This document shows, piece after piece, positions 1-15,612 of a stretch of 20,000 nt of DNA; position 1 is the stretch's first letter, and each line of letters begins with the position of its first letter. The notes below the pieces were generated by a model. The model ran no database searches and had not been told where the DNA came from. It was given only the letters and a program-made list of their open reading frames with translations. The DNA is from Vermamoeba vermiformis (lineage: Eukaryota). The stretch spans positions 121,079 to 141,078 of the forward strand of contig JBEWZL010000049.1 in NCBI GenBank assembly GCA_045837725.1. The letters are read 5' to 3'. The position numbers and the translations under genes were made by a program.

Positions 1-54
1 TTGAACACTAATCATTAATTTGATTACTAACCACCCACCTTTTTTTTCTTGCAG
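1..54 (+). other. 3' end of a probable 5'-UTR intron of SLBP
   Basis: Canonical branch point TACTAAC at 25-31, a pyrimidine tract and GCAG at 51-54, 11 nt before the ATG. Confidence 0.65.
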
Positions 55-65
55 GATAAGTCGCA

Positions 66-1318
66 ATGGCCGCTAGTGTAAGTTATTAACACTGCAATTT
101 GATCGTATCTAAGCAATCACATCTAACGTAGCTTCTTACAACCGACAGGTCGAAGCCGTAAACTCTTTCACTCGTGAATTTTTGATTCAATTCGAGCAGG
201 TAAATATCAACGTGCAAGCTCATGATTTAATTCGTGCTCACATCCTGTCTTGTTTAGAAAGTCTCTGTTCCTTCTCAATTGAAAGAACGCATCTTTGAAC
301 TCGTCCTCTCAAGAGGAGAGGCGTTGGCTGTCAAGAAGCCCAAGGTAAATTGAATTTATTTTCTCATCGGCATCTGATTTTTATTAACTTGTAATTCTTC
401 AATTAGGTTAAGCGCCCCGCTCAAACTGATTCTGACGTGGCCTCAACTAAGACCGCTTCTAAGACTTTGGTCAAGGCTAAATCGCAATCTGCCATCCAAA
501 AGCCCGCCAAAAAGTCAACCAAGGCTGAAGAGAACGCCGTCGCTGTCGTCGCTAAGCCCGCGATTAAGGTTGCTGCCGAGAAGCCCGCCCAACCTGCTAA
601 GGAACGAAAGGCTCTGGCTCCAATCGTTGCCAACAAGACTTCAACTGCCTCCGCTTTGAAGCCCAAGAACGTTACTATTGCCGCCCCTAAGGCTACCACT
701 GCTGCTGCCGTCGTTGCCAAGACTGCTGCTCCTTCTAAGGCTGTCGCTGTCGATAAGGAGAACGACGCCAATGCTGCTAAGAGCTCCGTAATCAACATTG
801 CCAAGGGTGTTGCTGCTATCACCAAGGCCGCTCTCAAGCCTCAAGTGCAAAAGCCTGCTGTTGCCAAGACAGTCAAGCCTGCCGCTCCTGTCGCCGTTGC
901 CGCCAAGCCTGTGCCCGCCATTCCTCAAGAGGATGAAGCTCCTGAGGGTGGTGAGTCAGACGAGGCTCGTCTCCGTGCTCGTCAAAAGCAAATCGAGTAC
1001 GGCAAGAACACCGATGGCTACAGAAACTACGTCGCCAAGGTGCCCAAGGACCAACGCGTCAAGGGCATGCCCTCTACTCCTGACAAGTACCAAAAGTGCA
1101 GCAAGCGCAGCTGGGACGGTCAAGTTCGCAAGTGGCGCCGTCAGTTGCACGCTTACGACCCTGCTCCCGCTCCCCTCAGCGACGACTTGGACCTCATCGA
1201 TGGCGAAGACTTGTCGACTCGCTTCAACGAGCTTCAATTGGGTCAAGGATCCTTGAAGGCTACTGACGCTTTCTCCTTGGAGGACAAGCCCAGAGCCGTC
1301 AAGGTCTTGCAGTTCTAA
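66..1318 (+). CDS. SLBP: Histone mRNA stem-loop binding protein (SLBP), about 353 aa, 4 exons: 66-77, 149-199, 258-344, 407-1318
   Basis: The C-terminal segment (953-1162) ESDEARLRARQKQIEYGKNTDGYRNY...PSTPDK...SKRSWDGQVRKWRRQLHAYDP matches the SLBP RNA-binding domain (RQKQIxYGKNT, TPxK, SxRSWDxQ..W+..LH..DP). GT-AG introns 78-148, 200-257 and 345-406 keep one frame. An in-frame TAA at 57-59 fixes ATG 66 as the start. Codon usage is strongly biased (AAG/GCC/GCT/GTC). Confidence 0.93.
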
Positions 1319-1407
1319 ACAATTTTCCTCTTGTATAGTCGGATTGTATTATTGTTATTATATGTGCATAAAGGTTGTTAATCAAAAGCTGGTCCAAATT
1401 TTCTTTC

Positions 1408-1428
1408 GCGATCGCAGGCACGTGCCTG
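1408..1428. promoter_or_regulatory. Palindromic E-box/G-box-containing element upstream of the J-domain gene
   Basis: Perfect 14-bp palindrome CAGGCACGTGCCTG (1415-1428) overlapping GCGATCGC (1408-1415) by one base, about 90 nt before ATG 1515. Function is inferred only. Confidence 0.3.
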
Positions 1429-1514
1429 GCAAATTATTCTTTTGCGCTGGTTGCGCTGTTATTTCCAGCATCTCATAAGCAAAGCAACAATTAGCTTGCT
1501 ACCTCAGATTAAAC

Positions 1515-3186
1515 ATGAGCCGCACGTATATTTCTCGAACTGAGTGCTACGAGGTGCTTGGCATCCAAGAAGGTGCCTCTGAAGATGAAATCAGGTATTT
1601 ATATAGTGCCGATCTTATTACAGGCATTTTATTTATCAAAAGTTGCACGCAAATATTCCAAGAAGTCCCTTTAGTTTTGAACGGCAGATCGGATGTCCTA
1701 AACTCGAACAATTATCATTATTTTGTTTTATTATCAACAAGTTATAATAATTCTCATATGTTAATTATCTCTTTGAAAAATACTTATTCTGATCTTTTGA
1801 CAAATAATGATTTATTTATTTAAACCAGACGGGCCTACAAGAAGCTTGCTTTGAAGCATCATCCTGATAAGAATAACAATAGTGAAGAGAGTACAGCGAA
1901 ATTTAAAGAGATTTCTACAGCCTATCAAAAATTAACCAAGCCGTAAGCACGATCTTCGAGGATTTGATTTTGGCGGGACTAATTCCTTATTTTAGCGATT
2001 TTGAAGATGACGAGGGCGATTTTGACTTCACAGACATGAATGAAATGTTTATGCAAGTTATTATGTCCCGTTTGTTTGGCATGAATCCGTTCATGCAAAG
2101 AGGACCTGTCTTTATCAATCCTGGTGGCTTCGGAGGGTTCCATTTCCGTAAGTTTGAAGTAATGGACTGATATTCTACCGAGACAAACGCCCTATGTTAA
2201 TATAGACGACATGTACGATGACGAAGACGATTATTATGACGAAGAAGATGATGATGAAGACGACGAGCACAATTATTTCCACGATCATCCGTTCTTCCAT
2301 TACAGACCTCACGCGCACTACCACGATGACGAGGACGAAGAAGAGTACGACGAAGACGAGGACGAAGGTGAAGAGAGTCCTATGGATGAAGAAGCTCGCC
2401 GTCGATTCTGGCAAGCTAGAATGCGTGCTTATTACGATGACGACGATGACGATGAAGGCGAAGAATATGACGATGATGATGAGGCTGAGGAAGATCTTGA
2501 CGCCGATGAAGATGACAGTATCGATCCTGCCAAAGTCGGTGACGAGCGATACAAACACACGTTCAAGTACAACCCTCATCCACTCGCAGCAGCTATTAGA
2601 GACAGCGAGTACGGAGTGTTCACAGATATGTTGGAAGATCATCCTGAATACGCCACTGCCAATCTTGGTGCTGGCAATACTGCCATGCATTTCTGCGCTA
2701 GATTTGGTCGCGTTCGCTTCGCTAACTATTTGTGCGATCACGGTGGCCTTCAAACAATTGCTTTGCGCAACGAGAAAGAGGAGAGCCCTATTGAGGTAAT
2801 GTCTTTAACTTACATTCAATTGGATAGCGTTGCTAATTCGTGGTGATTAGATTGCCGAGGCTTATGCACACAAGTCAGTGGCAGCTTTCAGAGAGATTGC
2901 TGCTCGCGCACGCAAACAAGCTAGAAAGGACGAACAAGAGAGCAAAGCTAAGCAACAACAGCAGCCTAAGAAAAAGAACAACAAGAAGAATAAGAAGTAC
3001 AAGAACACGCAGAAGAACAGCGATAAGAAGAAGCCAGAGAGCGGTGCTAATCCTACCACAGGGGCCAATGGCAATAACGGCAAAGCAGCGGAGAAAAAAG
3101 TGCAAGAAGAGAGCGATGAGGAAGATGAGGGTGTTTCATTTGGTCAAAATGTCTTCTCCGTGCTTCAAGGCGCCAACAAGAAGTAA
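1515..3186 (+). CDS. DnaJ (J-domain) protein with G/F patch, long Asp/Glu-rich tract, ankyrin repeat(s) and Lys-rich tail, about 423 aa; exons 1515-1594, 1829-1942, 1996-2147, 2206-2795, 2851-3186
   Basis: The spliced N-terminus [52 protein letters not shown] is a J-domain with [28 protein letters not shown]...[12 protein letters not shown] is ankyrin-like. All introns are GT-AG and frame-consistent. Confidence 0.9.
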
Positions 3187-3355
3187 TTGAAAGGACACTT
3201 GTCTTATCTAATGCTTTTGTTATTCGCGGTCTAGATTAAGTTTTGTACCGGTTGTAAATATAGGTTTTTGTTGCTGAAAAGAGGAATCTTTTAAATTTTG
3301 TCAAGCTGCATCCATTTATTTTTGTAACCCAACATGTTGGCAATACGACCTCATT

Positions 3356-5881
3356 ATGAGCTCTAATAAGGATTTTAAAAAACGAAGGGGCGAAGACGAA
3401 ATGGATGATAGAGAACAAAAGCGTCGACGAGGAGATCACGAGGGTGATCGCTCAAGATCTTATTATAATTCTCGATCTACGGACAAAAAAAGACACAACA
3501 GGAATAATTACAATAATGGGCAAAGCCAGAACTATTCAAATAATAGAAAATCGTCCAAAAATTATACAGATCGCAATAATAATTTAGCCTATTCACCAAA
3601 AAATTATAATCAGCCTCAATATCGAAGAAAAGAGTCGGATGATCATAATAGAAATATTGAGAAAAAAGAGTACAAGAAGAAGCTCACCATCCATCTTGTT
3701 TCAGATAACACGACACAGCACGCAGGAAATAATAGGACCCTGCATTTCAATTTTGTAAATAATAATATTAAGAGTAACCAATCGAATCAAAGTCCTCAAC
3801 AACCCAAAGTGTCAAGCCCATCCACGAATGACACAAAAACAGAGCCAGCGCCACCTCTTCCAGGCTATTACTACGACCCCGATATCAATAGGTACTTTAA
3901 AGTGCCACCGACAGGCACAGTAATGTACAAGAAGTACCAAGAGGCGTTGAAAAAGGCCGAGGAAAAGGATCGCAAACAGAAAGAGGAGAGGCAGCAGCGA
4001 GAGGAAAAAGAAAGAATAGAGCGTGGTGTAAATATATCTATATTAAGCGACAAATATAAGAGTCCATTATCAACTCTTATACGAAGAGAAGCTGGTAGAT
4101 CTCAACGACCGAAAGAATTTGTATCGTAAGTGGAATCAATTTTGAATATTCTTATGCTAATATCTATATTTAGCAAATCATTAGCAACGTTATTCAAGCG
4201 GATAGAATGCCGCTATAATTTTCCTTGGCCACTTCCTGACACAGAATGTTATGACATGATTGTACAGAACGATGAGACACTGATAACTGGTTTAAGAGAC
4301 GGCCAATTCATGTACGTCAAGTTACTACATGGACTTATAACCTGACATCATGACTCGCAGGGTTGATAAACTTGAATGGAGAGACAAAGATATTTATGTC
4401 AAAGGATTGTGCACGACAGAATCGAGTTCAGTACGTTAAGACTATCATAATAATTGTTAACATACATTATTGCAGATAAGCTCGGTGGGATTTCATTCAA
4501 AGCACAAGACAATGTACAGGTAGAGTAATTCTCTATTTAAGTTTAATTTTATTGACCGGATATCCGCATTTAGTTCGACTATCCTAGGAGGAGGTCGTAG
4601 CGGCGAATTAAAGCTATATAATTCGCGCCTTCAGTGCGAACATGTAACGAAGCTGCGCAAAGGTTCAATGTGGTGTCATCAATGGTCTGCGAATGGACAA
4701 TACATTTCTATGGGCATCAGCAAGGGTGCCATGATCCTTGATACTGTCACAACGAAGGTGATAAATTGTTTCACTGAAAAGAGCGATGTTTTTGCACAAG
4801 CGTTCACTGAAAACGTATGTCAGATCTACCTGTACAAACATTGTTTCATTTTCGAACTAATCTATTCTCAAGAGCAATATATTATTGAATGGATCACGCG
4901 ATGGCAAGATTCGCACGTTTGATATTCGTCAGCACACGCAACGAACGCCGTTTGGAAGTCACGCGCCACTCATGAAACACGAGTCATCGATCACCTGCTT
5001 GAAGCTGCTGAGGGATGATAACTATCTGGTCTCCAATTCTATAAATGGCGTAGTGAGTATATGACAACGAAGTGCTAATAGAGCCGTTTGTTGATTAAAT
5101 TTTGTCAGATCAACGTTTGGGATCGAAGAGTTAGCAAGGTCGTTACTAGGATGGAGTATTCTAACCAGATGACCTCAAACAAATTCTCCGTTGATCCGGA
5201 CGAAGAGTTTGTATTTATTGGTAAGCTAATTTTAATAACCGACAAGTTGAGAATTCTTAGAGAAGTACATCCGCAACTTCTTGTCTATTTCGTTACCAAA
5301 AAATTGTTGTACTCCCGTAAGTTATTCATAGCAATTAGCGGGGCCCTATTTTTAAGTCTGTTCAGACAACTTAGAAGTACCTTCTCCGAGCCTTGGCTCC
5401 GATCGAAGTGTAGTATCTGTTCTGCTTAGTTTAATCTCTAAGCCTGCCAGCCACCGCGCTGTGCATCGATGATTGAACAATTTATTCTTAGAGGGTCGCG
5501 GCGTGAGTTTGAGTTCAGATTGGCTTGCTGGTTTGAACTTGACTTGCGAACGGATCAGACGTGCATTGTACAACAGGCCGTAGTTGGTCCCCCTCTCTTT
5601 TTATTTTTGATACTATTTTTTTTAAGCTTAATAGCCCCTTAATAATTGGATGCACGCTCATATGGCTGATCTCGATTCCTTTAGGTGGTCAAGATAAGAA
5701 GATTTACATTTGGAACCTTAGAAGTGGCGAGCATATTCATACTTTAGGACCTTATACTACGCCTGTTAAATCGTTAGTGTTTGGAAGAAGCTGGATCCAA
5801 GATCAAATCTGTGTACCAGGTTTTTGGACCTTCCTTAACAATCGCATAGAATTCTATGGCATCTGCAATATAAATATGTAA
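3356..5881 (+). CDS. DCAF4: DCAF4/WDR21-like WD40 protein (putative CRL4-DDB1 substrate receptor), about 583 aa; exons 3356-4125, 4174-4311, 4361-4430, 4476-4519, 4574-4814, 4873-5052, 5109-5220, 5685-5881
   Basis: LPGYYYDPDINRYFKV resembles the DCAF4 N-terminal PGxYxDPxxxRYF motif. WD40 blades include LLNGSRDGKIRTFDIR, INVWDRR (WDxR) and GGQDKKIYIWNLR. Splicing gives a continuous frame (1752 nt). Confidence 0.82.
5313..5355 (+). promoter_or_regulatory. Candidate snRNA promoter: DUSE-like element TCCCGTAA (5313-5320) and AT-rich box TATTTTTAA (5347-5355)
   Basis: One mismatch to the Dictyostelium upstream sequence element (A/T)CCCA(C/T)AA. It starts 63 nt before the predicted U2 5' end at about 5376, the spacing known for DUSE. 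Confidence 0.55.
5376..5596 (+). ncRNA. U2: U2 spliceosomal snRNA (divergent), inside intron 7 (5221-5684) of the WD40 gene
   Basis: AAGTGTAGTATCTGTTCT with branch-site recognition sequence GTAGTA (5410-5415). Stem IIa GCTTAG-TTTAATCT-CTAAGC (5424-5443). Stem IIb TGCCAGC/GCTGTGCA. IIc pairing GTTTAATC (5429-5436) with GATTGAAC (5471-5478). Sm-like site AATTTATTCTTAG (5479-5491). Long stem III capped by GCTTGC. Stem IV with loop ATTGTAC (5565-5571). Ends are approximate. Confidence 0.92.
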
Positions 5882-5892
5882 ATAAAAGGCGA

Positions 5893-6780
5893 TTATTTAT
5901 TCTGGAAGAAATAGGCTAAGCCTGCTACAACTAAAGAAACTCCGAAAAATATATTTCTTCGCGAGATCCATGATTTACAATTGCGAAGTCTTTGAATGAG
6001 CGATGCGACTTGTTTTTGGGTGTCTTCGAGCGAGTTTGAATTATCTACGACTACGTTGGCTAGTTTCTTCTTAGTCTCAAGCGATAACTGCGCATTGATC
6101 ATGTCTTTTGCCGCGGGTTCTTCAATGCTGTTGCGCTTCATTAATCTGATAGAAAATCAATTAGATTACGTAATCTATGATATAATAATATATTTACCTT
6201 TCTAACTGGGTTTCATAAGGAGTATAGACGACCACGACAAGGTTGCAGATCCGGTTCAATTTCGCTTCGAATAATAACGGCGAGTCTAAAATAAGACATT
6301 GCGTTCCTCGAAGCCAATTCCATACTACTATTTTGCAAATCTCCCACATTATATAAGGAAATGTAATCCCGTTCAATTTCATGCGCTCTTCTTTCGATCC
6401 AAATATTTTCTAATTTTCTAAAATTAGCCTGATTGAATCTTATTCAATATAAAGCTCGAACTTACTGCGCCTAATTTCTTTCGATCGATATTTCCATCTT
6501 CTAGCAGAATATCAGTGCCCCAAGTCTTTACGATCTTCTTGTAAGCAGGTTTGCCGACTTGCACCAGCTAAAAATTAATTAGAATATTTCAATTAATTTA
6601 TTTTACGTACATCTCTGCCAATCTGATCGAGGTCTATGACAACAGCCTCTGAATAATGTTCCTAAAATTATTAAAATTAAATAAGGCGGAACGAGAGGAC
6701 TTAGCAGGACTTACTCGGAACATCTTAGCGACCGTTGACTTGCCAGACGATATCCCTCCTGTAAGTCCAACTATATACAT
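5893..6780 (-). CDS. DCAKD: Dephospho-CoA kinase (CoaE/DCAKD family) with C-terminal hydrophobic anchor, about 227 aa; exons 6780-6715, 6661-6611, 6567-6466, 6409-6198, 6145-5893
   Basis: MYIVGLTGGISSGKSTV P-loop, VIDLDQIGR, DGNIDRKKLGAKIF, ILDSPLLFE, QLERLMKRN and VVVDNS are CoaE motifs. The tail IFFGVSLVVAGLAYFF is hydrophobic. Confidence 0.93.
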
Positions 6781-6892
6781 GTTTTTTGTGGTTAAACGGT
6801 TCGTTAGTAAAATTAAATGAGAAAATGGTTGCGCGCCTTTTTCGTGTTTGAATCTGATCTTCTAAATGAACGACCACAAAGCTAAATAGAAG

Positions 6893-12083
<5,191 letters not shown>

Positions 12084-12161
12084 TTTAGCGAATAAACTTG
12101 TAATAATAGTTTATATACACTGTTACTCTAATATTCTACAACTACATCTAAATAAGCCTTA

Positions 12162-13236
12162 TTAACCATTTACTGCACGTTGTTGAACGAACAAAATGTT
12201 GTTGATCCAATGCTTGCCTAGCAAAAACTTATTAGTACTCGTTCTTTCCACATTAAATATTGACTAGCATACCTAATGGATCATCGACAGTATATTGATC
12301 GATAAGTTTGACTTCATACGATTTATCTTCGAGTAAAGTGCGGATCAGCTGCGCCATTTCTTGCATGGTCCAATGAGCTCTAAATCGCTTCACTTTTTGC
12401 ACGTAATCTTCTTTTTCTAATAAAAGCTCTTCGGATATATCATGCACAGTAGTAGAGAAGTGGATAAAGCCTAGTGTAGAATGAATTAAGTCCGGATTCA
12501 GATCTCGTAACAGCTGCTTTGACTTACCTTGACCGTTACGCAGTAGAGAAAAGAACTTGTTGAATATATTAGGCACTTCATGTTTACGGAACAGATGAAT
12601 AAAGCTCTGCGCGAAGATGACGTCGAACTTCTGCTCGAACTGATGCGTAACGAAATTTCCAACAATGAATGTAGAGCTTGGCGAGGCTTGTTTAGCGACT
12701 TTAACCATCTCTTCTGATACGTCTATACCGTAGGTAATCATTTTCTTCTGCGTAAAGTAACTAACCAAAAATCAGTTCAAGAACGAATCCGGATCGAAAT
12801 CATCATTTTGTGAAGCATGATCTTCAACGTAATAGTCTACACAAGATCTGTAATGTACCTGAGATCAAGTCCAGAACCCACTCCAACGTCTAGAACGGTC
12901 AGATCGGACCTGTCGCCGAAATGATTGTGGATGTGCTCGTAGTATCGATCGATCACGTTTTTATTATTCTCTGAGAATATTGGTAGACGCGTTCGATATT
13001 CGTCGGCTCTAATTCGAATAATTAATGAAATTCTAAGTGATTATTTTATTACTTAATTTTTCATGAAAAGATCACTTCACTTAAAATCGAATCAGTATAA
13101 AAAATAAACATCAAAAATGATTGGAATATTATATCAATATTAAAAAATGTAAAATACGGAGGAGATCGGCCAATACATTTTGGCGCACTTACAATGTATC
13201 GTAGGATTCTTTGTTGATATGCACAAACTCCATCAT
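12162..13236 (-). CDS. Class I SAM-dependent methyltransferase, about 226 aa; exons 13236-13193, 13008-12859, 12760-12528, 12470-12273, 12217-12162
   Basis: YDTLADEY N-terminal helix, motif I VLDVGVGSG, post-I YGIDVSEEMV, motif II KFDVIFAQSFIHL and motif III LLRNGQGFI. Introns are GT-AG and in frame. Confidence 0.88.
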
Positions 13237-13491
13237 AGTTGCTTTGGACCAAATAATGTCTATTGTGCTAGTACTATTGTAGTGTTGCTTATTTAAAAAT
13301 AAAAGAAATTCGAGCAAGAACTTTTCTGTTTTTGTGGATCCTGTCACAAAGCACGTTCAAGTTGTCAAAAATAGCAGCTTATTACTTTTAATAAATTATT
13401 TATTTTAAATAGAACGCCTGGCAATTATCTTTCTGCTTTACATCCTTGTCTAATGAAAACAAATTTTTGACAAAAAAAGGCTGGATCAGAT

Positions 13492-15612
13492 CTACTTTGA
13501 AATATCTGATTTTCCGCTGCTTCGTAACGAGCTCGTACCGCTCGCTGAAGAAGTTGTTGCAGAGGTCGGCAACATTTGCAGCAACAAATCGTGCCAAGCT
13601 GCGGCTTCATGATTGGCCTCGCACTTGAAGTAATGTGCGATGGTCTCGTGGCTGTGCGTGATCAAAGTCAACACGTTCTTGTTGCAGTGCACTTCGACCA
13701 CAGTGTCCATGTTGATCGTGCACACGGGGAACTGCAAATCAGGAGGCACGAGCTCCATGGCTGGTGTCTCGTAACCCTCGAGCAGTCCGTTGTCATTGAG
13801 CATGAACAACAATGTCTCGCGTGTTGCATCGCTGTCCAGTTGATACTTCATCCAACCCTTCATCAGCACTACGAACAGCGAGTTAGGTGATATTCATAGG
13901 CCTAAATATAGATGCCTAGTAGTGTAAACTAACGTACCTTTCGCTTGAAGTTTTGTGCCCGGTGAGGTGCCCAACATGGCGCCAATGCCCGACTGACTCT
14001 TGTTTCGCTTGTGCGCGCTGTTGCTGCCAGAAATGCTGCGAGGACTAGATTTGGGCGACAACGACGAGTGCAATGAGTGCTCGTGTGGCTTCAACGGGAT
14101 TGGTGGGACCATCGGATGTGTCGTGCGCGGTGAAGTTCCAGCCACAGCAGCAGCGGTGTGCGTGTATCTTGGTGCTGACATGCTGCGTGTGCGGTGCATG
14201 CGCGCTGTGCTGTTTGAACGAGACTTGCTCGGGCTGTGCGGTGTGACAATGGTGACGGGCTTCGTGGCCAGCATACTTGGCGAGGACGCTGAACCACTTG
14301 GCGGCGTGTTGCCGTGCCACCATTCAGTGAACTGACGCTCATCGTCGATCTCTGCGCCCCTGTCATATAACAACGCATAAGCGACTATTACGAACGATAG
14401 CTGCATATTAAAAAGTGTCTAGTGTACCTCTCCAGCAACATCTTTTCGGTGGTAATTTCTTGCAGCTTGCTGTGTTCTTTAGCGATTTTTTGTTCCAAAA
14501 CAAAGTTATCGGTCTTCAGTCGCTTCAATTTCTCTTTTAATGTTAAATTTTTCTTCTCGGCTAATTATAGTAAATAAATTAAAATTATTCGTTGCATAAA
14601 TTTAATACGACATCGTTTTTACGTACTATTTTCGAATTCTTCTTTGTATTGGTTAACCTTTTGACGACTCTCCTCGAGTTCTTTTTGCATTAATTTGTAT
14701 TTTTCATGAAGTTCTTTCTCTTCGTCTAATTTCTTCTCCAAGACACTGTCCAGAAACAATTAAAATTAATTGACGGAATAATTTTGAGCTGTTAAATTGT
14801 TATTTGCGCTAATTTAGTGCCATGCATGGATATACCGACTATATTAAAGCATTATAACAGATTTTTACGTACTCTTTTTCATGCTGAATTTTCTCGAGTT
14901 CTTTTCGGAGTTTATTAACGATATATTCTTCTTCTTGTTCCAATTGATTTTCGAGATCGACCTTTTCTTGCTTAAGCTATATTAAAGTACTAAACGTTAG
15001 CTTTGGTCGCGATTTGATGAAATTTTAATGGAGATCTGCCGTGGAAATTTAAAACAAAGCTAAAAATGGGTTACATTGATTCTCTGAAAGATCTTTAGCG
15101 ATTTGCTGCGTAACTAGTGCGTAATATATTAATGTTACCTGAATAAGTTTCTTCTGTAAAGTGTTGGTTAAATATTCTTCTTCTTGTTCGACTTGCAAAG
15201 CGAGCTGATCTTTCTCTTTTTTGATTTCCATTAAGTTTTTCATTAATTTATTAGTAATATATTCTTCTTCTGCTTCTGCTGCGGCTTGCTGTAAACGACA
15301 GAAATTATTAGCGAATGCGATCTGATTATTGTGAAAAGACGTCATTCTTAAAATATTATGAAATTCTGGGTATAAAGCTATTATTATACAGTGCATATAG
15401 TATTAAAGATGAAGCGAAATTTAACGTTGGGGCGTATAAATTATTACAGATTTGGTATTTTTATTATTTGTAATTACCGAAGAGATTTGTTCTTGCTTAG
15501 CAGCCTTTAATTCAGCAACTAATTTCGCATTTTTATGTTTTTCATCCTCCAAAGCGTGCTGTAATTTTTTAATTTGTTCAAGGAGCTCATCGGTAGATTT
15601 AGGGGGCTCCAT
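13492..15612 (-). CDS. CCDC6: CCDC6 (H4/DUF2046)-like coiled-coil protein with Ser/Pro/His-rich linker and C-terminal PH-like domain, about 479 aa; exons 15612-15478, 15288-15139, 14976-14873, 14745-14627, 14560-14428, 14359-13938, 13868-13492
   Basis: Repeats AEAEEEYITNKLMK, VEQEEEYLTNTLQKKL and LEQEEEYIVNKLRK, plus EIDDERQF, match CCDC6 signatures (EQEEEFISNTL; EMDDERYF). The last exon VLMKGWMKY...HYFKCEANHEAAAWHDLLLQM has a PH-like pattern. Confidence 0.8.

What the first reader, a model, noticed from the sequence alone, without database searches (positions are those of the whole stretch)
5381..5420. U2 variant with substitutions in the normally near-invariant U6-pairing/stem I region
Seen: CTCCGAGCCTTGGCTCCGATCGAAGTGTAGTA. 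Established consensus: CTCGGCCTTTTGGCTAAGATCAAGTGTAGTA. The AA bulge between U2/U6 helix Ib (GCU) and helix Ia (GAUC) is replaced by CC, one extra G precedes AAGUGUAGUA, and the UUUU loop is shortened. GCU and GAUC themselves are intact, and stem I is re-formed as GAGC-CUUG-GCUC. Loop IV is AUUGUAC rather than AUUGCA(C/G), stem III is lengthened, and AGAGGG (5490-5495) could pair with CCCTCT (5591-5596). Inference: structure-preserving change argues for a functional, possibly specialised U2 isoform or a lineage-specific spliceosome core, not a decayed copy.
Basis: partly seen in the sequence, partly recalled or inferred. Interest (0 to 1): 0.7.

Follow-up and report, generated by a model that had tools for sequence, protein, structure and literature searches.

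The report
Second U2 RNA with U6-type promoter
Besides its ordinary U2 splicing RNA, this amoeba has a second, expressed and conserved U2 whose gene carries the start and stop signals of U6, so it is probably made by a different RNA polymerase and may be a separately regulated part of the splicing machine.

Summary
The sequence is as described, but the altered letters are not the main finding. This Vermamoeba-like genome holds 3 identical ordinary U2 genes and 4 near-identical variant genes (3 independent loci, all inside introns, on the sense strand). Reads from a diverged relative cover only the variant's body (about 250-fold, flanking intron 0). They show 0 changes in the first 90 positions against 14 in the other 132. 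Helix I strands, the branch-site sequence, stem IIa (three compensatory pairs) and stem IIc are kept.

All 14 Pol II-class snRNA genes found have a CAYAAA-type box 28-29 nt after the upstream element, start 60-63 nt after it, and end in an A-rich 3' box. The variant lacks these. Like U6 it starts 65-66 nt after the element, ends in a T-run and has no internal TTTT.

Best reading: a Pol III-transcribed U2 paralog beside the Pol II U2, working with the shared protein set. Pol III U2 is known in trypanosomatids. I found no report of both kinds in one genome. Polymerase and spliceosome entry are inferred, not shown. Support for a dedicated variant U6 partner is weak.

The parts
5379..5601 (+). Variant U2 snRNA gene body (about 220 nt, ending in the T-run)
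   Evidence: Rfam RF00004 5379-5597. RNA-seq depth is confined to bins 5353-5631. The start at A5379 is inferred from promoter spacing and from fold-back joints that end at 5378-5381.
5251..5278 (+). Conserved distal promoter block; holds, in reverse orientation, a motif also found upstream of some U1 and ordinary U2 genes
   Evidence: 0.93 mean identity among the 4 copies against 0.47-0.51 in the adjacent blocks. Motif hits in 4 of 4 variant genes and 6 of 14 Pol II-class genes.
5313..5320 (+). Upstream sequence element (DUSE/USE-like, TCCCGTAA)
   Evidence: Same kind of element upstream of all 26 snRNA genes tabulated. 0.94 identity among copies. Resembles the DUSE given in PMC3188802.
5347..5354 (+). 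TATA-like box 34 nt after the element, at the U6-class position; no CAYAAA-type box at +28/29
5366..5378 (+). 13-nt block before the start, invariant in all four copies
   Evidence: Identity 1.0.
5379..5411 (+). Rebuilt, extended stem I: C5399 pairs with G5388, the inserted G5405 pairs with C5384; contains the helix II strand (5380-5386), helix Ib GCU (5396-5398) and helix Ia GAUC (5401-5404)
   Evidence: Predicted fold of the first 45 nt: -9.2 kcal/mol, against -6.8 for the ordinary U2.
5410..5415 (+). Branch-site recognition sequence GUAGUA, unchanged
5424..5443 (+). Stem-loop IIa: loop identical to ordinary U2, three of six pairs changed on both sides
5471..5478 (+). 3' strand of stem IIc (8 bp with the IIa loop)
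   Evidence: -8.6 kcal/mol; 0.1% of 3000 random 16-mers did as well. Both changes in the relative's reads keep 8 pairs.
5479..5491 (+). Sm-site region with the U6-run broken
   Evidence: 5486 T>A in 157 of 250 reads of the relative.
5490..5596 (+). 3' domain: closing helix 5490-5495/5591-5596, long stem III, stem-loop IV with loop AUUGUAC (5565-5571)
5598..5608 (+). T-run directly after the gene (T5-A-T5), Pol III-type terminator; no A-rich 3' box
   Evidence: T5 or longer at offset 0 in 4 of 4 copies; 0 of 14 Pol II-class genes have a T4+ run within their first 25 downstream bases.
5221..5684 (+). 464-nt GT..AG host intron holding the whole cassette
   Evidence: A contig of run X2 joins across it, skipping 464 nt, GT..AG.
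3401..5878 (+). Host gene, DCAF4-like WD40 protein (approximate extent)
   Evidence: Exon 4876-5052 hits PF23761 at E 1.7e-7, above the cut-off.

Best explanation
A second, functional U2 snRNA family that has moved from RNA polymerase II to polymerase III. SHOWN: the gene family, its expression in a relative, selection on RNA and promoter, and flanks that sort it with U6 and not with U1/U2/U4/U5. INFERRED: SNAPc binds the element at 5313, the spacing recruits Pol III, and the RNA starts at A5379 and ends in the T-run at 5598. The U-runs of stem I and of the Sm site had to go because they would stop Pol III. Stem I was rebuilt in a shifted register, which accounts for the first C of CC and, through the extended stem, the extra G. 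INFERRED further: the RNA enters the major spliceosome with the shared proteins and reads the same branch sites as ordinary U2. It would then be a separately regulated, differently capped U2 pool. Its stronger extended stem I may make it slower or more stringent to activate. My odds: real, expressed and selected about 0.9; Pol III about 0.75; acts in splicing about 0.65.
For: Promoter classes. Box CA[TCG]AAA at +28/29: 14 of 14 U1/U2/U4/U5 genes, 0 of 5 U6/U6atac, 0 of 3 variant U6, 0 of 4 variant U2, and 3 of 508 background element-like sites. Element-to-start distance: 60-63 in 14 of 14, 66-68 in 8 of 8 U6-type genes, 65-66 in 4 of 4 variant U2. T-run end and no A-rich box. No internal TTTT, against 1 of 70 distinct near-full-length metagenome U2s. 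Promoter footprint 0.93-1.0 against spacers 0.47-0.51. Expression: 383 reads of run X24, up to about 250-fold over the body, 0 in intron bins 5229-5352 and 5632-5755, 0-7 in host exons; a 247-nt contig of RNA run X4 spans 5373-5607. Selection: 0 of 90 against 14 of 132 positions, Fisher p 0.001; 6 of 7 changes at paired positions keep pairing. Stems IIa and IIc are kept, and their switching is needed for spliceosome progression (PMC4712673, abstract). USE-TATA spacing sets the polymerase in plants and ciliates (PMC8287931, passages).
Against: No direct test of polymerase, cap or particle. The spacing runs opposite to Arabidopsis, where Pol III has the shorter gap, so class is read only from this genome's own genes. 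My TATA rule was set after seeing the data and caught only 2 of 5 known Pol III genes (background 26 of 508). Lack of TTTT alone is weak: 14.6% of shuffles lack it, and so does RNase MRP, which has Pol II-class flanks. Most starts are my choices by homology, not mapped ends. The canonical Sm site is broken and varies in the relative. Loop IV AUUGUAC was not among the 64 loops typed. The extended stem I is predicted to bury the helix II strand and the G before GUAGUA. Helix II with ordinary U6 is weaker than for ordinary U2 (-7.6 vs -10.5). The reads come from a strain about 92% alike, are unstranded, are thin at the 5' end, cannot be assigned to one copy, and were not compared with ordinary U2 levels. 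All changes between strains are one-sided. Whole-RNA folding z is only -1.9.
Confidence: 0.58

Rival explanations
1. A parallel snRNA set: variant U2 works preferentially with the variant U6 genes L013/L014 (and perhaps variant U4/U1) as a second RNA core on shared proteins.
For: The genome holds 3 variant U6, diverged U4 genes and a diverged U1. Variant U2 helix II is -11.2/-11.1 with L013/L014 against -7.6 with ordinary U6. L013/L014 keep ACAGAGA and the AGC triad and have U6-class promoters.
Against: L013/L014 pair ordinary U2 just as well (-11.6/-11.9). The striking AGU/ACU match needs a start at 5376, which spacing and the read joints disfavour. One SF3b1, one gene each for the Sm/Lsm subunits found, two Prp8 copies 98.9% identical, one U5 sequence. 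Expression of variant U6 was not tested.
Confidence: 0.15
2. A Pol III RNA derived from U2 that no longer splices but acts as a nuclear decoy or store for U2 proteins (SF3b, U2B'') or as a regulator.
For: Broken and variable Sm site, altered loop IV, a stronger extended stem I that hides the U6-pairing strand, and a U6-like oligo-U end.
Against: Helix Ia/Ib strands, the helix II strand, GUAGUA and stem IIc are all kept, and nothing in the 5' domain changes between strains. A decoy would not obviously need stem IIc.
Confidence: 0.15
3. An intron-encoded U2 cut out of the host pre-mRNA like a snoRNA, that is a Pol II product without its own promoter.
For: All 3 independent loci lie in introns on the sense strand. 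The host intron is spliced.
Against: Distal block, USE and start block are conserved while the spacers drift. Spacing matches U6. Host exons have 0-7 reads against about 250, though strain divergence may hide exon reads.
Confidence: 0.06
4. A U2-derived SINE-like or decaying repeat without function.
For: Low Rfam score (56 vs 149 bits). A 360-nt cassette sits in unrelated introns.
Against: Only 4 copies by three searches. The untranscribed promoter travels with it, which retroposition cannot do. I saw no target-site duplication or tail by eye in the alignment. Expression and selection.
Confidence: 0.04

Closest known systems
Major-spliceosome U2 snRNA (Rfam RF00004), including this genome's three ordinary genes
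   Same: Full-length model match; helix I and II strands, GUAGUA, stems IIa/IIc, III and IV.
   Different: U6-class promoter and T-run end, no internal TTTT, broken U-run in the Sm site, shifted stem I, 19 nt longer, intronic.
Trypanosomatid U2, transcribed by Pol III
   Same: A U2 made by Pol III: the C82 subunit occupies the gene and its knock-down lowers U2 (PMC11894013, passages). A U2-specific Sm core is named in a reference title in PMC6597758.
   Different: There TFIIIC associates with the U2 gene, and I recall that it is the only U2 and uses tRNA-type boxes. Here a USE-TATA promoter, coexisting Pol II U2 genes, and no extra Sm gene found.
Polymerase-switched small RNA genes with type 3 promoters (plant U3; plant and ciliate telomerase RNA)
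   Same: The same upstream element serves both polymerases and spacing decides (PMC8287931, passages). DUSE serves Pol II and Pol III genes in Dictyostelium (PMC7919456, passage).
   Different: Those are described as lineage-wide assignments; here two gene families of one snRNA differ within one genome.
U2 sequence variants (human U2-2P and others; Dictyostelium developmentally regulated U2 variants)
   Same: Expressed U2 paralogs; some human ones enter spliceosomes (PMC8457000, passages). For Dictyostelium I saw only the title of Hinas et al. 2006 in a reference list.
   Different: Human U2 genes are described there as Pol II genes, and U2-2P differs only in the 3' half. The polymerase of the Dictyostelium variants could not be checked.

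Membership tests
U2 snRNA | Full-length match to RF00004 above the gathering score | tested here: met
   56.3 bits against 46, positions 1-192
U2 snRNA | Branch-site recognition sequence GUAGUA | tested here: met
   5410-5415
U2 snRNA | Helix Ia/Ib pairing with U6, 2-nt bulge | tested here: met
   -5.2 kcal/mol with all major-type U6 of the genome
U2 snRNA | Helix II pairing with U6 | tested here: met
   6 bp (-7.6) with ordinary U6, 7 bp or more (-11) with L013/L014
U2 snRNA | Stems IIa and IIc | tested here: met
U2 snRNA | Sm site (A, four to six U, G; consensus recalled) | tested here: inconclusive
   The U6-run is broken. The remaining AAUUUAU(U/A) resembles a U1-type site (recalled), and this genome's U4 L020 site also has a C.
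U2 snRNA | Loop IV motif AUUGCA for U2B'' | tested here: inconclusive
   AUUGUAC, one change, stem kept; binding not testable
U2 snRNA | Assembly into U2 snRNP and spliceosomes | not testable with these tools
   Needs immunoprecipitation or gradients
Pol II Sm-class snRNA gene of this genome | CA[TCG]AAA box at USE+28/29, start at USE+60-63, A-rich 3' box | tested here: not met
   0 of 4 copies against 14 of 14 controls
Pol III type 3 gene (U6 class) | Start at USE+65-68 with TATA-like box at about +34 | tested here: met
   Spacing 65-66; the TATA rule was set after seeing the data and fits 2 of 5 controls
Pol III type 3 gene (U6 class) | T-run terminator and no internal T-run | tested here: met
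Pol III type 3 gene (U6 class) | Pol III occupancy or inhibitor sensitivity; triphosphate or gamma-methyl 5' end | not testable with these tools
   Bench work
U12 snRNA (minor spliceosome) | U12-type branch recognition sequence and specific U6atac pairing | tested here: not met
   Only RF00004 reaches its gathering score in the window; pairing with U6atac is about equal for both U2s (-5.0 vs -4.7)
snRNA-headed SINE | Many copies, tail and target-site duplication, no external promoter | tested here: not met
   4 copies; external promoter conserved

The most novel reading that the evidence does not exclude
This amoeba runs a second major-type RNA core, Pol III-made variant U2 plus variant U6 (L013/L014), possibly with variant U4 and U1, on the shared proteins. 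It may be assembled without export or a normal Sm ring and be used in a particular state such as encystment.
Probability: 0.15. Interest if true: 0.92.

Novelty: new variant of a known kind. Interest (0 to 1): 0.66.

Why it matters
U2 is made by Pol II, capped, exported and loaded with an Sm ring in animals (PMC8457000, passage) and, from my own knowledge, in most eukaryotes; trypanosomatids are the known exception. A genome with both a Pol II U2 and an apparently Pol III U2 would be a natural experiment on three questions: whether U2 needs a trimethyl cap and a canonical Sm site, how snRNA genes switch polymerase, and what the extended stem I does. PMC8516221 asks for U2s with divergent 5' ends to test the last one. 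The 26 snRNA promoters also give a two-class spacing code for an amoebozoan, usable to predict other small RNA genes.

Tried and rejected
(1) Co-variation of U2 AGU with U6 ACU: dropped, because the likely start is A5379.
(2) A second protein set: not found for SF3b1, Sm/Lsm or Prp8. These searches are lower bounds. U2A', U2B'', SNAPc and Brf were not searched.
The depth in time of the family is unknown.
(4) More U2 genes: 7 exact core matches, and 7 one-mismatch hits (control 6) without U2 flanks.
(5) U4 x U6 pairing: only L023 with L012 shows a preference, of about 1 kcal/mol; not used.
(6) The CHD protein search did not place the lineage.
(8) Earlier notes of the scan: nothing relevant.
(9) Hinas et al. 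2006 is not held. No paper matched the helix I bulge terms, so the role of the bulge bases is not sourced.

Full report
OBSERVATION. The quoted letters lie at 5384-5415, inside a full-length Rfam U2 match at 5379-5597, 56.3 bits. All listed features are present. Against the genome's own ordinary U2, stem I has no length change. The stem is re-registered so that C5399 pairs with G5388, the TTTT is gone, and the inserted G5405 pairs with C5384 in an extended stem. The ordinary U2 already has an AU bulge.

ORGANISM AND CONTEXT. The genome has 43.3 Mb in 309 contigs. The window's SLBP exon is 88% identical to an EukProt protein of Vermamoeba vermiformis, so I infer a Vermamoeba-like amoebozoan. 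The gene lies on the sense strand of a 464-nt GT..AG intron (5221-5684; spliced joint in one contig of run X2) of a DCAF4-like WD40 gene.

GENE FAMILY. The genome search gave 7 U2 genes: 3 identical ordinary ones (149 bits) and 4 variants (56-57 bits), 97-100% alike in the body. DNA and pattern searches found no more. The variants share a cassette of about 360 nt, from -130 to the T-run. They sit in introns of a SPRY-containing DEAD-box (DDX1-like) gene, an alpha/beta-hydrolase-like gene, and the WD40 gene twice (the SPRY and hydrolase hits are below cut-off and the DDX1 label is my recognition). The two WD40 loci lie in a duplication of at least 14.5 kb at 95-97% identity, either alleles or a segmental copy, so there are 3 independent loci. 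The genome also has 4 ordinary and 3 variant U6, 5 U1, 4 U4, 2 U5, 1 U6atac and 1 MRP; these counts are lower bounds.

EXPRESSION AND SELECTION. I laid 4 of 24 listed runs. X24 is raw RNA-seq under the same species label, about 46% read, with reads mostly 90-95% alike. It gave 383 reads: about 250-fold over the body, none in intron bins 5229-5352 and 5632-5755, and 0-7 in host exons. Most of the loose ends shown for it look like library adapter (recalled motif), not genomic flank. The library is unstranded. Fold-back joints end at 5378-5381; I read them as reverse-transcriptase artefacts marking a 5' end near A5379 (inference). A 247-nt contig of RNA run X4 covers 5373-5607. X24 differs at 0 of 90 positions in 5376-5465 and at 14 of 132 in 5466-5597 (p 0.001; depth is low at the extreme 5' end). 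Of the 14, 7 fall in predicted pairs and 6 of these keep pairing. Two more fall in stem IIc and keep 8 pairs. None is a two-sided change. Against ordinary U2, stem IIa has three two-sided changes around an identical loop, and IIc is retained (-8.6 kcal/mol, 0.1% of random controls). IIa/IIc switching is needed for spliceosome progression (PMC4712673, abstract).

PROMOTER CLASS. All snRNA genes tabulated carry a DUSE-like element (DUSE as given in PMC3188802 and PMC7919456, passages). The 14 U1/U2/U4/U5 genes have CA[TCG]AAA at +28/29, start at +60-63 and are followed by an A-rich box. The 5 U6/U6atac genes and the 3 variant U6 lack the box, start at +66-68 and end in T-runs. The 4 variant U2 genes lack the box, have a TATA-like word at +34/35, start at +65-66 and are followed at once by T5 or more. 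Background for the Pol II box is 3 of 508 element-like sites in 210 kb of held DNA. Distal block, USE and start block are 0.93-1.0 identical among copies, the two long spacers 0.47-0.51. The variant has no internal TTTT, unlike 69 of 70 distinct near-full-length metagenome U2s (matches without a recognisable 3' domain and duplicates were dropped before this count). Limits: most starts were chosen by homology; my TATA rule was set after seeing the data and fits 2 of 5 known Pol III genes; 14.6% of shuffles also lack TTTT; and Arabidopsis uses the shorter spacing for Pol III (PMC8287931, passages), so the assignment rests on the internal controls.

MECHANISM. Most likely a U2 duplicate acquired U6-type spacing, lost the U-runs that stop Pol III, and rebuilt stem I. 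It keeps the elements used for branch recognition and U6 pairing, so I infer that it splices ordinary introns with the shared proteins: one SF3b1, 16 Sm/Lsm-type loci with no duplicate subunit by my reading (subunit names recalled), and two Prp8 copies at 98.9% identity with 1 difference in 1157 codons. A Pol III product would lack the m7G cap and end in oligo-U (established knowledge), so its assembly route must differ. The Sm site is the weak point. The extended stem I, which excludes the branch-point stem-loop in human U2 (PMC8516221 and PMC13019295, passages), is predicted 2.4 kcal/mol stronger than in the ordinary U2. That could tune activation or could mark a decoy role.

PARTNER U6. The variant's helix II is better with U6 L013/L014 than with ordinary U6 (-11.2 vs -7.6), but those U6 pair ordinary U2 equally well. 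The longer match seen needs three bases that are probably not transcribed. A dedicated pair is possible but weakly supported.

COMPARISON AND NOVELTY. It is a U2 by every sequence feature testable here, with the Sm site and loop IV inconclusive. It fails the test for this genome's Pol II snRNA gene class and meets the sequence tests for the U6 class. Pol III U2 is shown in trypanosomatids (PMC11894013, passages), and variant U2s enter human spliceosomes (PMC8457000, passages). Ten searches of the held library showed no report of Vermamoeba snRNAs (one search gave 0 papers) or of coexisting Pol II and Pol III U2 families. I read listings for most hits, and the library lacks most subscription papers, including Hinas et al. 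2006 on Dictyostelium U2 variants, of which I saw only the title. PMC6597758 was seen as passages and reference titles, and bioRxiv 10.1101/2022.06.08.495308 as abstract. I did not open supplements; the promoter table S1 of PMC8287931 could hold similar cases.

VERDICT. A real, expressed, conserved U2 paralog, probably switched to Pol III: a new variant of a known kind, interest 0.66.

Noticed in passing
L021 (G000:C102, near 336360-336561): A U4 snRNA gene interrupted by a 70-nt spliceosomal-type intron (GT..branch-like motif..AG); it has a normal Pol II-class promoter. I recall such introns in fungal U6, U2, U1 and U5; not checked for U4 or for amoebae.
   Followed up: partly
L051 (G000:C220:102897-103199): RNase MRP RNA has Pol II-class flanks here (box at +28, A-rich 3' box, no T-run). 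I recall it being Pol III in most eukaryotes, so this may be a switch in the opposite direction.
   Followed up: partly
L012, L013, L014: Three variant U6 genes with a different 5' hairpin and an added 3' hairpin before the T-run. L012 looks like a mosaic of variant and ordinary parts and lacks one C in the internal stem-loop.
   Followed up: partly
L018, L019, L022, L023: Diverged U1 genes with changes next to the 5' splice-site pairing region, and diverged U4 genes; all have Pol II-class promoters.
   Followed up: partly
window 1-14524 vs G000:C202:80000-94538: The first 14.5 kb of the window are duplicated on contig C202 at 95-97%. Yet the promoter spacer of that copy is 92% like the unrelated locus L007 and only 48% like the window's, which suggests gene conversion between variant U2 loci.
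   Followed up: partly
L061, L065, L078, L148: Four closely related U2-like sequences on AT-rich metagenome contigs have the same extra G, with a UU bulge; the organism was not identified.
   Followed up: no
window 56-1318: Histone stem-loop-binding protein (SLBP, PF15247) gene with a long Ala/Lys-rich N-terminal part.
   Followed up: partly
L033; L176, L177: A U6atac gene is present, so a minor spliceosome is likely. Prp8 occurs twice at 98.9% identity.
   Followed up: partly
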